Assembly: GCA_025352125.1 (NCBI GenBank)
Contig: JANXTZ010000041.1
Coordinates: forward strand, 7,756-71,755
Length of the DNA stretch: 64,000 nt
From: Deinococcales bacterium
GTDB taxonomy: Bacteria > Deinococcota > Deinococci > Deinococcales > JAAFIG01
Direction of reading: 5' to 3'
The translations under genes were made by a program, and so were the position numbers. A model generated the notes under the pieces. The model saw nothing but the letters and a program-made list of their open reading frames with translations. It searched no databases and was not told the DNA's origin. Below are positions 22,481 through 27,735 of the stretch, piece after piece; the stretch's first letter is position 1; each line of letters begins with the position of its first letter.

Positions 22481-23368
22481 TCAAAAAAATATTGAAGGGT
22501 GTTTTCCTTGCAAAACCGCCCTGGCTCGAGCCTCACGCCGAACTTGCAAGACCACCACAGTTAACCCGCAAAATAAAACAAACCACAAAAACAATTTTGG
22601 AACGCCAAGCACCAAGCACAACCCCAACACAGCCAATTGCGTGCTCAACTCGAGGTTTGCCAGCACCAGCAAACTATCAGCCTCAAAATATTCAATTCTG
22701 GCAATGGCACGAAGGTCTGGTCTGGGAAACTGCAAGTAAACTTTTTCAAATCGGGATTCGGAAAAATTTCTGATCGCCACATCTTGCGGTTTGAAAAATC
22801 CAGTATACACACGCTCGAGGAACCTTAAAACGCTTTGGTTTTCGGTGCTGGTGTCTGGACTGGCTCGGAATGGTTCATTGCGCTCGAGACGGTAAAGGTA
22901 CTCCCAGTTGAAATCAAAACTGAGCAACAGTGTGAACGTCACAATTGCCAGGAACGCCAAAAACCATGCGCCCGTGATTGCGCCCAGACCTGCGAACAAC
23001 GCGGCATTGACCAGCGTATCGCCTTCGGTGTCCAAATAACGCCCGATTTCTGTCATCATGTTGGACGCTCGAGCAAGTTGACCGTCGGCATTATCGAGAA
23101 CGGTTTTGACTTGAATTAGTATTGCGGCAATCCAAAATTCGCCTCGAGCAATCAAAAAGCCACAAAACACGCCCAAGCACGTGTGAAACACCACCAACCA
23201 AGTGGGCTGAACTTTTAAAGGCAGCAAGGCTTGCACCACCAAATGCGCGATGGGGCGAAAAAAATACTCGCTCGAGAATTCAATTCTGGGGCGTGGTTTG
23301 AGTGAACGCTGATACACGCTTTTTGAATCGTTGGCGGGTTGGCTCATGGGTATGAGATTGTACTGCAT
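22481..23368 (-). CDS. CDP-alcohol phosphatidyltransferase family protein
   Basis: 295 aa, multi-TM, with signature DNADGQLARASNMMTEIGRYLDTEGDTLVNAA (DGxxAR...G...D...D). Confidence 0.8.
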   Translation of the reverse strand: MQYNLIPMSQPANDSKSVYQRSLKPRPRIEFSSEYFFRPIAHLVVQALLPLKVQPTWLVVFHTCLGVFCGFLIARGEFWIAAILIQVKTVLDNADGQLARASNMMTEIGRYLDTEGDTLVNAALFAGLGAITGAWFLAFLAIVTFTLLLSFDFNWEYLYRLERNEPFRASPDTSTENQSVLRFLERVYTGFFKPQDVAIRNFSESRFEKVYLQFPRPDLRAIARIEYFEADSLLVLANLELSTQLAVLGLCLVLGVPKLFLWFVLFCGLTVVVLQVRREARARAVLQGKHPSIFF

Positions 23369-23379
23369 CGGGCTTCTGG

Positions 23380-23419
23380 GAAGTGAGACGCAAATTGCAT
23401 CTTGATTGCTCGAGATTCA
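23380..23419. repeat. 40-bp direct repeat, copy A (3' flank of the toxin-antitoxin cassette)
   Basis: GAAGTGAGACGCAAATTGCATCTTGATTGCTCGAGATTCA. It matches 24038-24078 with one substitution and one 1-nt indel. Confidence 0.85.
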
Positions 23420-23764
23420 CAAGCCCTGAATTAACCGCAATCCATCTTCAACGCGCCGCAACAGTTCTGCTGGCAAGATGCCAATGCGAGACTCGAGAAA
23501 CTCCCGATCTATCGTGACCACCTGGGTCACGTTCACGACGCTCTCTTGCTCGAGTCCAGCGCTAAATGCAGGAATCAGGACATTGCCTGGAAGGTCAGCC
23601 AGTGCCAAGTTGGTTGTGATTGACACGGCAAGCACTGTTGCCAATCTCGAGCGGTTAAAGCGGTTGATTTGAACAATCAAAACTGGGAGGCGAAACCCTG
23701 GTTCACTGCCGACAGGTTCGGGCAGGTTTGCCCACCACACGTCGCCACGAGAGATTTCATCCAT
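23417..23764 (-). CDS. MazF/PemK-family type II toxin (endoribonuclease)
   Basis: MDEISRGDVWWANLPEPVGSEPGFRLPVLIVQ...NVTQVVTIDREFL is typical of PemK. The track ORF starts 18 nt further upstream (23782). Confidence 0.85.
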   Translation of the reverse strand: MDEISRGDVWWANLPEPVGSEPGFRLPVLIVQINRFNRSRLATVLAVSITTNLALADLPGNVLIPAFSAGLEQESVVNVTQVVTIDREFLESRIGILPAELLRRVEDGLRLIQGL

Positions 23765-23988
23765 GGCGCTCGAGGGTCGCACCTTGCAATCGTTTTAAAC
23801 CCGACAAGACGTGTGTCCACCCGATCTGCAACACGGTTTATGGCTTCGGTGAGCGGATCAATTTGGTTTGTCTCGAGAAACACTTCGAGCGCTTGGGCGT
23901 AAACGGCACTGCGGGTCAGACCGCGTTCCCTTGCAAAGCGTTCGGCGGCTTCAAAGACTTCGTTTGGCAGTGAAACAGCAGTTTTCAT
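23677..23988 (-). CDS. Ribbon-helix-helix (CopG/MetJ-type) antitoxin; the 3' end is suspect
   Basis: MKTAVSLPNEVFEAAERFARERGLTRSAVYAQALEVFLE is a classical RHH N-terminus. As read, the ORF overlaps the toxin by 88 nt with a Cys-rich tail that looks non-native (see findings). Confidence 0.7.
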   Translation of the reverse strand: MKTAVSLPNEVFEAAERFARERGLTRSAVYAQALEVFLETNQIDPLTEAINRVADRVDTRLVGFKTIARCDPRAPWMKSLVATCGGQTCPNLSAVNQGFASQF

Positions 23989-23994
23989 GACTCG

Positions 23995-24023
23995 AGTATA
24001 CCAGGCGTAATACCCGATTTCAA
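23995..24023 (-). promoter_or_regulatory. Promoter of the toxin-antitoxin cassette, predicting a leaderless mRNA
   Basis: On the minus strand: TTGAAA, 17-nt spacer, TATACT, then 6 nt (cgagtc) to the antitoxin ATG at 23988. Confidence 0.45.
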
Positions 24024-24037
24024 CGGGATTCTTAAGT

Positions 24038-24078
24038 GAAGTGAGACGCAAATTGCAGCTTGGATTGCTCGAGATTCA
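24038..24078. repeat. 40-bp direct repeat, copy B (5' flank of the toxin-antitoxin cassette)
   Basis: GAAGTGAGACGCAAATTGCAGCTTGGATTGCTCGAGATTCA. Confidence 0.85.
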
Positions 24079-24119
24079 AACGAAAGGGACATAATCTTGA
24101 CTAAATTTATTTAGAGATC

Positions 24120-24689
24120 TTAAGTATGAAATTCATTCACAGGGATAAACTGACACCCAGTTATTCCAGAAGTCTCGAGGCTAGATTTCAGAGATTGATG
24201 GATTAACACAAAGCAATAAAATTCTGCTATTCGCAGCAAGGGTCGTTGCATATCCAGAATCTCTTGTTTTAGTTCTAATTTTTTAATTTCTATAATGAAT
24301 TCAGCATCTTCTGTATCAAAAACAAGCTCTGAATTTTTAAGGTCAATCGATTCATGTTTTTCGAGCAGATGAAATGCCGAGTAATTTAAATCCAGTTGAA
24401 CTCTGGACTTGAGATCAAACACGTCTGAGGGAATGCTCTCAGAATTAACTCCGTGCTGCTCGAGAATATCAAGCATTCGTTGCGAATACATATCAATACC
24501 ACTTCCGCAATTGTAATTGTCAAATTTTGGTCCAGAACCATCGATCAAAAATTTGAATCGTTGTGGTTTTTTGGTTAAAGGCTCTGCCAACCACCAATGA
24601 GGCTCACAGTCTCGTAATAATGGTTCTGATCTTGCGAGAAGAGTCTTGTTGTGCCAGCTTTTTAATTCTGCTCGAAATACAAAGTACAT
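24120..24689 (-). CDS. Hypothetical protein resembling DUF1629/Imm11-type polymorphic-toxin immunity proteins
   Basis: 189 aa in markedly AT-rich DNA (about 38% GC in a 120-nt hand count). ...GSGIDMYSQRMLDILEQHGV... and C-terminal FVLIHQSLKSSLETSGITGCQFIPV resemble that family from memory only. Confidence 0.45.
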   Translation of the reverse strand: MYFVFRAELKSWHNKTLLARSEPLLRDCEPHWWLAEPLTKKPQRFKFLIDGSGPKFDNYNCGSGIDMYSQRMLDILEQHGVNSESIPSDVFDLKSRVQLDLNYSAFHLLEKHESIDLKNSELVFDTEDAEFIIEIKKLELKQEILDMQRPLLRIAEFYCFVLIHQSLKSSLETSGITGCQFIPVNEFHT

Positions 24690-24772
24690 ACTGACCTCGT
24701 GAAAAAAGTATACGTTTAAATTCTTTCATTTGAAGCAAGTGAAATACGAAAATTATCTTCATCTCGAGCATC

Positions 24773-24802
24773 AAAAAAGCGTGAAGGGTTTCCCCTTCAC
24801 GC
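24773..24802 (-). terminator. Rho-independent terminator of groES-groEL
   Basis: GCGTGAAGGG-gaaa-CCCTTCACGC followed by TTTTTT on the minus strand. Confidence 0.8.
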
Positions 24803-24808
24803 CGTAAC

Positions 24809-24844
24809 CTCGAGTTTTCTCGAGTTTTCTCGAGTTTTCTCGAG
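24809..24844. repeat. Tandem array (CTCGAGTTTT)x3 plus a fourth CTCGAG
   Basis: Read directly: cctcgagttttctcgagttttctcgagttttctcgagg. It lies between the groEL stop (24847) and its terminator. Confidence 0.95.
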
Positions 24845-24846
24845 GT

Positions 24847-26574
<1,728 letters not shown>

Positions 26575-27091: not shown

Positions 27092-27322
27092 ATGAAAAGT
27101 ACCATCAGCACCAAAGGGCAAGTCACCATCCCCATCGATATTCGTAGCGAACTGGGCGCAAAACCAGGGGATCAAATCGAATTTATCAAACACAACAACG
27201 AAATTGTGGTTCGGGTCGCTCGAACAAAAGACAATCCTTTCGATCAATGGATTGGGCGCTTCCCACTGCCTAAAGGTCAAGATGCCGTTACTTGGGTACG
27301 AGAACTTCGGGACGCAGAGTGA
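27092..27322 (+). CDS. vapB: AbrB/SpoVT-type antitoxin (VapB-like)
   Basis: 76 aa: MKSTISTKGQVTIPIDIRSELGAKPGDQIEFI is a canonical SpoVT-AbrB swapped-hairpin motif. Confidence 0.8.
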   Translation: MKSTISTKGQVTIPIDIRSELGAKPGDQIEFIKHNNEIVVRVARTKDNPFDQWIGRFPLPKGQDAVTWVRELRDAE

Positions 27323-27735
27323 GAACTGCCATTGATACCAACATCATTTTGGCAGTTTGGAACAATGAACCTAACGCCGCACAACTTTCACAAGAATTAC
27401 AAAATGCCAGACAGCAAGGAGGATTGGTGGTTTGTGGTGCTGTTTTCGCAGAATTGCTGGCGCATCCTGGCATGAGTCCAACGCTGCTCGAGAAAACATT
27501 GACCCAGGCAGACATTGACATTGATTTTATGACAAGCAAATCCATTTGGAGCGGAGCAGGAAAAGCTTTTTCTGAATATGTTGATCGTCGCAAAAATGCT
27601 CAAACTGGACTTACCAAACAACTCCTGACCGATTTCATCATTGGCGCACATGCCAGCGAACGGGCAGATCAACTTCTGACCCTTGATCCAAAACGCTACG
27701 CTCAAGGATTCTCGAGTCTCAAGTTAATCCCTTAA
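27319..27735 (+). CDS. vapC: PIN-domain toxin (VapC-like ribonuclease)
   Basis: The GTG at 27319 overlaps the antitoxin stop (GTGA). VRTAIDTNIILAVW... has the N-terminal acidic residue and ...LLTDFIIGAHA... the later conserved Asp region. Confidence 0.8.
   Translation: MRTAIDTNIILAVWNNEPNAAQLSQELQNARQQGGLVVCGAVFAELLAHPGMSPTLLEKTLTQADIDIDFMTSKSIWSGAGKAFSEYVDRRKNAQTGLTKQLLTDFIIGAHASERADQLLTLDPKRYAQGFSSLKLIP

What the first reader, a model, noticed from the sequence alone, without database searches (positions are those of the whole stretch)
23380..24078. MazEF-type toxin-antitoxin cassette bracketed by 40-bp direct repeats
GAAGTGAGACGCAAATTGCA[T/G]CTT[-/G]GATTGCTCGAGATTCA occurs at 23380-23419, overlapping the toxin stop, and again at 24038-24078, just upstream of the cassette promoter. 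The two copies are 658 bp apart and enclose exactly the two-gene module and nothing else. No integrase, transposase or attC-like structure is visible. Three readings are possible:
- the footprint of a site-specific insertion
- a duplication of a 40-bp target during cassette capture
- two copies of a dispersed intergenic element that can excise the cassette by recombination

Each copy ends in a CTCGAG.
Basis: seen in the sequence. Interest (0 to 1): 0.6.

Follow-up and report, generated by a model that had tools for sequence, protein, structure and literature searches.

The report
Toxin-antitoxin cassette with long target duplication
A small, now decaying MazEF toxin-antitoxin gene pair was inserted in front of a lipid-synthesis gene and copied about 40 bases of the insertion site to both of its ends, with no recombinase nearby; this mode of entry is published for restriction-modification genes but turns out to be common for toxin-antitoxin cassettes in this Deinococcales genome.

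Summary
A 40/41-nt direct repeat lies at 23380-23419 and 24038-24078 and brackets exactly one mazE-mazF operon with its promoter.

- **Not a dispersed element.** The repeat occurs nowhere else in this genome or in 18 related genomes.
- **Empty site.** One congener (G002) has a single copy in front of the same gene and no cassette.
- **Hot spot.** Another congener (G003) has three copies separating two toxin-antitoxin (TA) cassettes, mazEF and phd-vapC. A third (G001) has a MITE inside the same 40-mer.
- **Repeat comes from the target.** A homologous mazEF cassette in another genus sits elsewhere, between a different 27-nt repeat.
- **No recombination machinery.** I found no integron integrase, no attC-like fold, no terminal inverted repeats, and no tyrosine recombinase gene on the 104-kb contig.
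- **General pattern.** At least 13 other small TA-type cassettes here carry locus-specific 21-111-nt brackets, as do MazEF loci in five other phyla.

This fits 'insertion with long target duplication', published for restriction-modification genes.

The insertion is old. In this genome the toxin has lost its catalytic arginine and the antitoxin is frameshifted.

Repeat boundaries tend to lie at the hyper-abundant CTCGAG palindrome. That is a mechanistic clue I could not explain. Interest is moderate.

The parts
22481..23368 (-). CDP-alcohol phosphatidyltransferase gene. This is the target gene; its ATG lies 12 nt from repeat copy 1.
   Evidence: Pfam CDP-OH_P_transf, E 2.6e-12. Orthologues at 82-87% nt identity in five congeners.
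23380..23419 (.). Direct repeat copy 1 (40 nt), the target copy that stayed next to the CDP gene. Its last 3 nt are the mazF stop codon.
23417..23764 (-). mazF (PemK/MazF-fold toxin, 115 aa from the ATG at 23764). The conserved catalytic Arg is Leu here (codon at 23687-23689).
   Evidence: Pfam PemK_toxin, E 4e-23. PDB best hit M. tuberculosis MazF6, E 1.4e-30; 'fRLPvlivq' aligns to 'kRRPvlviq'. G003, G004 and G010 have RRP and G005 has HRP.
23677..23988 (-). mazE (ribbon-helix-helix antitoxin), frameshifted by a 2-nt deletion between 23804 and 23805. The last ~18 codons are replaced and the frame runs on to 23677.
   Evidence: Alignment with G003, G004, G005 and G010 and translations. The intact G003 version matches MazE6, E 5e-5.
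23995..24023 (-). Cassette promoter TTGAAA-17-(TG)TATACT. The mazE ATG at 23988 begins 7 nt after the -10 box, so the mRNA is probably leaderless.
   Evidence: Best promoter match in the region, 10 of 12. Conserved in G003, G005 and G010.
24038..24078 (.). Direct repeat copy 2 (41 nt). It continues into flank (ATTCAAACGA) that is collinear with the single-copy site of G002.
24079..24760 (-). AT-rich segment holding an Imm43-like gene (24120-24689). It is a further variable slot of the same hot spot.
   Evidence: GC 36% and 2.9 CTCGAG/kb, against 53% and 9.7/kb in the mazEF cassette. Pfam Imm43, E 1.7e-4, below the curated cut-off. Replaced by an unrelated 176-aa ORF in G003 and absent in G004.
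24736..24776 (.). Possible third, degenerate copy of the repeat (AAGTGAAATACGAAAATTATCTTCATCTCGAGCATCAAAA) between the AT-rich gene and the groEL terminator. Tentative.
   Evidence: Local alignment score was reached by 0.4-1.1% of random windows.
24778..24803 (-). groEL terminator hairpin, the outer boundary of the variable region.
   Evidence: Conserved in G003, G004 and G005.

Best explanation
A self-contained mazE-mazF operon, about 620 bp including its own promoter, was inserted into the short spacer in front of the CDP-alcohol phosphatidyltransferase gene. The event duplicated about 40 bp of the target, so one copy now lies on each side of the insert. This is 'insertion with long target duplication'.

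The cassette carries no recombinase and no recombination site of its own. The repeat is local sequence, not part of the element.

**Shown:**
- the duplication itself;
- its uniqueness to this locus;
- a single-copy site in a congener;
- a different repeat around the homologous cassette in another genus;
- the absence of integrase, attC and terminal inverted repeats.

**Inferred mechanism.** The join was illegitimate and guided by microhomology. It was either a template switch during replication or repair (out to cassette DNA, then back about 40 nt upstream), or capture of the cassette between staggered breaks followed by fill-in. One break or switch point lay next to a CTCGAG.

**Age and state.** The insertion predates the split of four species-level genomes. 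The same 40-mer was later hit again. In this genome the module is decaying: the toxin catalytic Arg is now Leu and the antitoxin C-terminus is frameshifted. The two repeat copies have been homogenised (97% identical).
For: - **Repeat and uniqueness.**
- **Single-copy site.** G002 has one copy of the 40-mer 11 nt upstream of the orthologous CDP gene and no cassette. Homology runs on past the repeat into the flank of copy 2: ATTCAAA[T/C]GA.
- **Three copies, two cassettes.** G003 has three copies separating two TA cassettes. These are phd-vapC (Pfam PhdYeFM 2e-13, PIN 2e-13) and mazEF.
- **MITE in the same target.** G001 has a 225-bp MITE with 18-nt terminal inverted repeats and a 9-bp target duplication inside the same 40-mer.
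- **Different repeat in another genus.** G010 has the homologous cassette (75% nt identity) at another locus, between ACGGG[G/C]CGGGAATGGGTGGCGCTC[G/A]AG repeats.
- **Junction microhomologies.** ATTCA in G000 and ACGGG in G010.
- **No machinery.** No PF00589 (Phage_integrase) gene on contig C70. No integron integrase above the cut-off in six genus genomes, best 62 bits against 265. Repeat folds are no better than shuffles, z -1.8 to +1.2. No Rfam hit.
- **Genome-wide.** 14 of 36 toxin loci have flanking repeats of at least 20 nt, against 0 of 127 shifted controls. Their cargo was checked by Pfam: PIN, PIN_3, ParE, HigB, PemK, HicA, RelE, XisH/XisI.
- **Single copy elsewhere too.** For the C7:140071 cassette, relatives lacking the cassette have one repeat copy.
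- **Other phyla.** MazEF loci in five other phyla carry 30-81-nt brackets.
- **Published precedent.** Described for restriction-modification (RM) genes with 30-400-bp repeats that are unique in the genome, mostly in naturally competent species including Thermus (PMC2853133).
- **Decay.**
Against: - **Empty site is imperfect.** In G002 and G001 the outer flanks on both sides are not syntenic with G000. Only the CDP gene and the 40-mer are orthologous.
- **Repeated hits.** Three or four independent events in one 40-bp target are unexpected for a purely illegitimate process and hint at site preference.
- **G004.** It has mazEF with only copy 1. I read this as a later deletion between two CTCGAG sites, but that is an inference.
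- **Biased count.** The 14 of 36 figure comes from a query panel largely ascertained through repeats. Among paralogues not so ascertained it is 3 of 25.
- **Mechanism untested.** No step of the proposed mechanism has been observed.
Confidence: 0.68

Rival explanations
1. The 40-mer is a site-specific recombination site of the att, attC, res or dif type. Circular cassettes are inserted and excised there by a recombinase encoded elsewhere in the genome. The locus would then be an integrase-less cassette array, like a CALIN or a res-site hot spot.
For: - Different cassettes (mazEF, phd-vapC, perhaps the AT-rich gene) sit between copies of the same repeat in G003 and G000.
- The left boundary of the duplication is the same base for the mazEF and phd-vapC events.
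- The repeat holds an imperfect 17-nt palindrome, AGAYGCAAAYTGCATCT.
- Twelve tyrosine recombinase genes exist elsewhere in the genome.
- Precedent: a Photorhabdus ParE/RelE module lies between two res-I-like palindromes, with a single copy in the empty relative (PMC13617665).
Against: - The homologous cassette in G010 is flanked by an unrelated repeat.
- Every other bracketed TA cassette in this genome has its own unique repeat, so there is no common site.
- The 40-mer exists at one locus only in 19 genomes.
- No attC-like fold and no integron integrase.
- The palindrome is not conserved in the single-copy site of G002.
- The right boundaries of the two duplications differ: 35 nt against 41 nt.
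Confidence: 0.15
2. The repeat did not arise at insertion. A local duplication or rearrangement copied the CDP upstream region to the far side of a pre-existing mazEF operon. Examples would be a tandem duplication followed by a partial deletion, or unequal exchange between sister chromosomes.
For: - G004 has mazEF next to the groEL terminator with only one repeat copy.
- The PIN_3 cassette on C35 lies on different sides of a 530-bp segment in different congeners, so local reshuffling around cassettes does occur.
- The two copies in G000 are 97% identical, although orthologous copies differ by 8-22%.
Against: - It needs several steps where one suffices.
- It does not explain why the same layout, with unrelated repeats, surrounds 13 or more other TA cassettes here and MazEF cassettes in other phyla.
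- It does not explain why relatives lacking a cassette have one repeat copy.
- The G004 junction lies exactly at CTCGAG sites present on both sides in G003, as expected for a secondary deletion.
Confidence: 0.08
3. The repeat is a chance match or an artefact of metagenome assembly.
For: The genome is a metagenome-assembled genome of 84 contigs.
Against: Shuffles expect 0.01 matches. The same layout is found in three independently assembled congeneric genomes (G003, G004, G005) at 83-89% identity.
Confidence: 0.01

Closest known systems
Insertion with long target duplication of restriction-modification gene units (Nobusato et al. 2000, Gene 259:99; Furuta, Abe and Kobayashi 2010, PMC2853133)
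   Same: - Small selfish 'addiction' module with no mobility gene.
- Flanked by direct repeats longer than 30 bp that are unique in the genome and match a single copy in an empty-site relative.
- The repeat lies at a gene start or end, so the target gene stays whole.
- Occurs in lineages known for natural competence (Thermus is listed).
- Mechanism unknown.
   Different: - The cargo is a type II toxin-antitoxin operon, not RM genes. That paper never uses the word 'toxin', and I found no paper describing this for TA modules.
- The same 40-bp target was duplicated repeatedly, giving an array.
- Repeat boundaries are associated with a hyper-abundant palindrome.
Integron cassette arrays and CALINs, which often hold TA cassettes with their own promoters (reviewed in PMC2654758)
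   Same: Short (0.5-1 kb) cassettes, including TA operons with their own promoter, separated by copies of a repeat. A stop codon lies inside the repeat.
   Different: - No integron integrase.
- The repeat has no attC-type hairpin.
- The repeat is target-derived and locus-specific, not cassette-borne.
Photorhabdus ParE/RelE module flanked by two res-I-like palindromes (Mol Biol Evol 2026, PMC13617665)
   Same: A TA operon lies between two copies of a short sequence, and a close relative has one copy and no TA.
   Different: There the repeat resembles a Tn3-family resolution site shared with a plasmid transposon. Here the repeats resemble no known site and differ at every locus.
MazEF6 of Mycobacterium tuberculosis (PDB 5HK0, 5HK3, 8ZWS for the toxin; 7WJ0 for the MazE6 antitoxin)
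   Same: Best structural-database matches for the toxin (E 1.4e-30) and for the antitoxin N-terminal ribbon-helix-helix domain (E 5e-5). Same gene order, with overlapping stop and start.
   Different: In this genome the Arg aligned to the RRP motif is Leu, and the antitoxin tail is frameshifted.
Decay of the chromosomal ccdO157 islet in E. coli (Mine et al. 2009, as summarised in PMC3879964 and PMC2654758)
   Same: A chromosomal TA islet with no mobile element. It decays by toxin inactivation first and antitoxin loss afterwards.
   Different: A different TA family. Long target duplication is not mentioned in the texts I could read.

Membership tests
Insertion with long target duplication (ILTD) | Direct repeats longer than 30 bp flanking the insert | tested here: met
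   40 and 41 nt, differing by one mismatch and one indel.
Insertion with long target duplication (ILTD) | The repeat aligns to a single copy at the corresponding site of a genome without the insert | tested here: met
   G002 has one copy 11 nt upstream of the orthologous CDP gene. Caveat: the outer flanks are not syntenic.
Insertion with long target duplication (ILTD) | The repeat is unique in the genome (not an IS, MITE or dispersed repeat) | tested here: met
   Two copies only in 4.53 Mb. Found only at this locus in 19 family genomes.
Insertion with long target duplication (ILTD) | No integrase or transposase in or next to the insert | tested here: met
   ORFs and Pfam. No PF00589 match on the 104-kb contig.
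Insertion with long target duplication (ILTD) | Cargo is a restriction-modification gene unit (as published) | tested here: not met
   The cargo is mazEF.
Type II MazEF toxin-antitoxin | PemK/MazF-fold toxin preceded by a small DNA-binding antitoxin in one operon | tested here: met
   PemK_toxin 4e-23. MazF6 1e-30. MazE6 ribbon-helix-helix domain 5e-5. Overlapping stop and start in G003.
Type II MazEF toxin-antitoxin | Catalytic Arg of the toxin and an intact toxin-binding tail on the antitoxin | tested here: not met
   Arg to Leu, and a 2-nt frameshift, in this genome only. That this Arg is the catalytic residue is my own knowledge of E. coli and B. subtilis MazF.
Integron cassette / CALIN | attC site: imperfect palindrome folding into a bulged hairpin, with a GTTRRRY core | tested here: not met
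   Fold energies are within the range of shuffles. No such core in the sequence.
Integron cassette / CALIN | Integron integrase in the genome | tested here: not met
   TIGR02249 best score is 62 bits against a cut-off of 265 in six genus genomes. The assemblies are 79-93% complete.
Transposon / MITE | Terminal inverted repeats and a short (2-14 bp) target duplication | tested here: not met
   No inverted repeat pair at the cassette ends. The duplication is 40 bp.
res/dif-type module | The same recombinase-binding site flanks modules at different loci | tested here: not met
   The repeats differ at every locus.

The most novel reading that the evidence does not exclude
The spacer in front of the CDP-alcohol transferase gene is a recombinase-free cassette-capture hot spot. 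Serial long target duplications of one 40-bp site build an integron-like array of addiction and immunity cassettes. The hyper-abundant CTCGAG palindrome marks where strands break or switch template, which would link a genome-wide iterated palindrome to gene acquisition in polyploid, transformable Deinococcales.
Probability: 0.2. Interest if true: 0.75.

Novelty: new variant of a known kind. Interest (0 to 1): 0.5.

Why it matters
How chromosomal toxin-antitoxin modules spread without any mobility gene is an open question; they are usually just said to arrive 'by horizontal transfer'.

This locus and its relatives show the scar of a specific route: a long, locus-specific target duplication. That route has been published only for restriction-modification genes.

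- The scar marks up to about a third of the sampled toxin loci in this genome (14 of 36 with a repeat-ascertained panel; 3 of 25 in the unbiased subset).
- It also marks MazEF loci in several phyla.

That suggests one shared entry mechanism for 'addiction' modules.

The three-copy array in G003, the 5-nt junction microhomologies and the link to CTCGAG give concrete handles for working out the mechanism in a transformable laboratory strain.

For annotation, such brackets are a simple marker of recently or anciently acquired islets.

Tried and rejected
- **Sequencing reads.** Nothing at read level was tested.
- **Dispersed element.** Rejected.
- **XhoI-type restriction enzyme or Vsr nickase as the source of breaks at CTCGAG.** No PF04555 or PF03852 match in this genome or its family. 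Other nuclease folds were not searched.
- **attC-like hairpin or known RNA.** None found.
- **Integron integrase.** None found.
- **Polarity.** I asked whether the CTCGAG-side junction always meets the 3' end of the operon. By my own tabulation from the coordinates, it does so in 8 of 12 cases, which is not significant.
- **phd-vapC homologue in G000 (C74:9682-10346).** No flanking repeat of 18 nt or more.
- **G000 region orthologous to the right neighbour in G002 (C55).** Uninformative.
- **Failed scripts.** Two scripts using fuzzy regular expressions timed out and were replaced by BLAST or aligners.
- **CTCGAG as a highly iterated palindrome.** A literature search found nothing.

Full report
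**1. The observation**

They differ by one T/G mismatch and one extra G. A 20-nt core occurs exactly twice in the window, while shuffles give 0.01 on average.

In the whole assembly (84 contigs, 4.53 Mb; the window is C70:7756-71755) the repeat is found only at these two places. Everything else is 11-20-nt matches centred on CTCGAG. A degenerate pattern search with up to three mismatches in all 19 genomes of the family finds it only at this one locus.

The repeat is therefore real, far beyond chance, and not a dispersed element.

**2. What lies between the copies**

All genes here are on the minus strand.

- **Toxin.** The 23417-23764 ORF is a PemK/MazF toxin (Pfam E 4e-23). Its best solved relative is M. 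tuberculosis MazF6 (E 1.4e-30).
- **Antitoxin.** It starts at 23988. The intact G003 version matches the ribbon-helix-helix domain of MazE6 (E 5e-5).
- **Promoter.** The best promoter match of the region, TTGAAA-17-TG-TATACT, lies at 24023..23995. It ends 7 nt before the mazE ATG, so the mRNA is probably leaderless.

Copy 1 supplies the toxin stop codon. Copy 2 lies 15 nt upstream of the -35 box.

**3. The module is decaying in this genome**

I aligned the cassette with those of four other genomes. The G000 mazE has a 2-nt deletion between 23804 and 23805. This replaces the last ~18 codons, which by my knowledge of this antitoxin type form the toxin-binding tail.

In G000 MazF, the Arg of the conserved RRP motif is Leu. 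The motif is RRP in G003, G004, G010 and MazF6, and HRP in G005. From my knowledge of E. coli and B. subtilis MazF, this Arg is a catalytic residue.

Toxin inactivation followed by antitoxin loss is the order described for ccdO157 (PMC3879964).

**4. The same locus in relatives (uncultured Deinococcales MAGs)**

| Genome | Layout |
|---|---|
| G005 | Same as G000 |
| G003 | CDP, repeat a, phd-vapC on the opposite strand, repeat b, mazF-mazE, repeat c, an unrelated AT-rich 176-aa ORF, groEL terminator |
| G004 | CDP, repeat, mazEF, then directly the groEL terminator |
| G002 | One copy of the 40-mer 11 nt upstream of the CDP gene, no cassette |
| G001 | Same single site as G002, split by a 225-bp MITE |

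- In G003, the vapC stop overlaps the left end of repeat b and the mazF stop overlaps its right end.
- In G004, the junction lies at a CTCGAG that is present at both ends of the missing segment in G003. I read this as a secondary deletion.
- In G002, homology runs past the repeat into the sequence that follows copy 2 in G000.
- The G001 MITE has 18-nt terminal inverted repeats and a 9-bp target duplication.
- The outer flanks in G001 and G002 are not syntenic with G000. The empty site is therefore supported by the CDP gene and the 40-mer only.

A weak third copy may lie at 24736-24776, between the AT-rich Imm43-like gene and the groEL terminator (p about 0.004-0.01).

The spacer between groEL and the CDP gene is thus a hot spot that has taken up several small cassettes.

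**5. Is the repeat part of the element or of the target?**

The decisive comparison is G010, from another genus. It has a mazEF cassette of 75% nt identity next to an ABC-transporter gene. That cassette is bracketed by a different 27-nt repeat, ACGGG[G/C]CGGGAATGGGTGGCGCTC[G/A]AG.

Cassette homology between G000 and G010 runs from just outside the toxin stop to about 45 nt upstream of mazE (CAACGG). Beyond that each locus has its own sequence. The repeat is therefore local target sequence.

Each event shows a 5-nt microhomology at one junction: ATTCA in G000 and ACGGG in G010.

**6. Generality**

*Within this genome.* A scan for isolated direct repeats 350-1600 nt apart found many small cassettes with locus-specific brackets of 22-111 nt. 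Pfam shows their cargo:

- PIN_3 with a ParD-like gene
- ParE with ParD
- HigB with an HTH gene
- PIN_3
- PIN (twice)
- PemK with a small antitoxin-like gene (weak HicB-like match)
- ParD with HicB and HicA
- XisH with XisI
- RelE with an HTH gene
- DUF6932 with an HTH gene
- a retropepsin-like pair
- a YhcG nuclease
- a nucleotidyltransferase

Of 36 testable toxin loci, 14 have flanking repeats of at least 20 nt, against 0 of 127 shifted control positions. The query panel was largely ascertained through repeats. Among paralogues not so ascertained the figure is 3 of 25.

For one other cassette (C7:140071), relatives lacking it carry a single repeat copy.

*Outside the order.* MazEF loci in Desulfobulbaceae, Chloroflexota, Dehalococcoidia, Terriglobia and Acidobacteriota have 30-81-nt brackets around 700-800-bp inserts. 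Six to eight of 67 loci have brackets of 30 nt or more, against one of 60 controls.

*Earlier notes of this scan.* They report the same pattern in other genomes. I treat them as leads only.

**7. What is absent**

- No tyrosine recombinase gene on the 104-kb contig.
- No integron integrase above the cut-off in six genus genomes.
- No attC-like fold; z-scores from -1.8 to +1.2.
- No Rfam family.
- No inverted repeats at the cassette ends.

**8. The CTCGAG clue**

CTCGAG occurs 428 times in the window against 17 expected, and 28,215 times in the genome, or 6.2 per kb.

- In 13 of 20 hand-curated bracketed cassettes, a CTCGAG lies within 6 nt of one repeat boundary, and flush with it in four.
- In the objective set of 86 repeat pairs the count is 18 against 7.4 expected. 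The maximum of 2000 randomisations was 19.
- The G004 deletion junction and the borders of repeat c in G003 are also CTCGAG.
- No XhoI-family nuclease or Vsr is encoded.

The association is suggestive and unexplained.

**9. Mechanism**

The pattern matches 'insertion with long target duplication'. This was described for restriction-modification genes, with repeats of 30-400 bp that are unique in the genome. Those repeats often span a gene start or stop, and most cases are in naturally competent species, including Thermus. The mechanism is unknown (PMC2853133).

My proposal is an inference. Either a 3' end switches template by microhomology into cassette DNA and then back about 40 nt upstream. 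Or the cassette is captured between staggered breaks, possibly on two chromosome copies, since by my knowledge Deinococcales are polyploid. Fill-in would follow.

The two copies in G000 are 97% identical, while orthologous copies differ by 8-22%. This suggests later gene conversion between them.

**10. Rivals**

- **Trans-acting site-specific recombinase.** This would explain the repeated use of one site and has a res-site precedent (PMC13617665). It does not explain the unrelated repeats at other loci.
- **Local duplication unrelated to insertion.** This needs more steps and does not explain the generality.
- **Artefact.** Excluded by three independent assemblies.

**11. Novelty**

I found no paper that describes long target duplication for toxin-antitoxin modules. 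The RM papers do not mention toxins.

I file this as a new variant of a known kind. It is the same scar with a different class of addiction module. Two things are added: serial duplication of one target, and a link to an iterated palindrome.

Noticed in passing
window 1-64000 (whole genome): CTCGAG is hyper-abundant. It occurs 428 times in the window against 17 expected, and 28,215 times in the genome (6.2 per kb). No XhoI-family or Vsr gene is found in the family. Foreign AT-rich segments carry fewer copies.
   Followed up: partly
window 24809-24848: Four tandem copies of CTCGAGTTTT lie directly downstream of the groEL stop codon, next to its terminator.
   Followed up: no
L006 (G001:C415), minus strand about 1294-1070: A 225-bp MITE with 18-nt terminal inverted repeats (CAGGGCAACCGCAAAGTC) and a 9-bp target duplication (ACCGCATCT) is inserted inside the same 40-mer. 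A related full-length copy lies at G000 C75:30174-30394. An inner ~40-nt piece is itself multi-copy.
   Followed up: partly
window 24079-24760; L011 (G003:C177) 271-815: An AT-rich slot lies between repeat copy 2 and the groEL terminator. It holds an Imm43-like gene in G000 and G005 and an unrelated 176-aa ORF with no Pfam match in G003. It is absent in G004, where the junction lies at a CTCGAG.
   Followed up: partly
G000 C28:53556-54553: Two nested direct-repeat pairs (25 nt and 26 nt) surround a PIN cassette. This looks like one bracketed insertion inside another.
   Followed up: no
G000 C35:170700-172850 (L016) and relatives: The same PIN_3 cassette (85-88% nt identity) lies on one side of a 530-bp segment in G000 and G005 and on the other side in G001, G002 and G003. 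The site used in G000 is empty, with a single repeat copy, in G003. The 530-bp segment is itself multi-copy.
   Followed up: partly
window 27092-27735: A second TA pair (an AbrB/SpoVT-like antitoxin by its sequence pattern, and a PIN-like toxin) lies 3 kb away. It has no flanking direct repeat of 18 nt or more.
   Followed up: partly
L065, L075, L085, L115, L049: MazEF cassettes in Desulfobulbaceae, Chloroflexota, Dehalococcoidia, Terriglobia and Acidobacteriota MAGs are bracketed by unique 63-, 81-, 61-, 62- and 30-nt direct repeats. In some, the repeat covers the 3' end of the neighbouring gene.
   Followed up: partly
window 23368-23420: No terminator-like site lies between mazF and the CDP gene, 48 nt downstream on the same strand. 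The CDP gene may now be read through from the cassette promoter.
   Followed up: no
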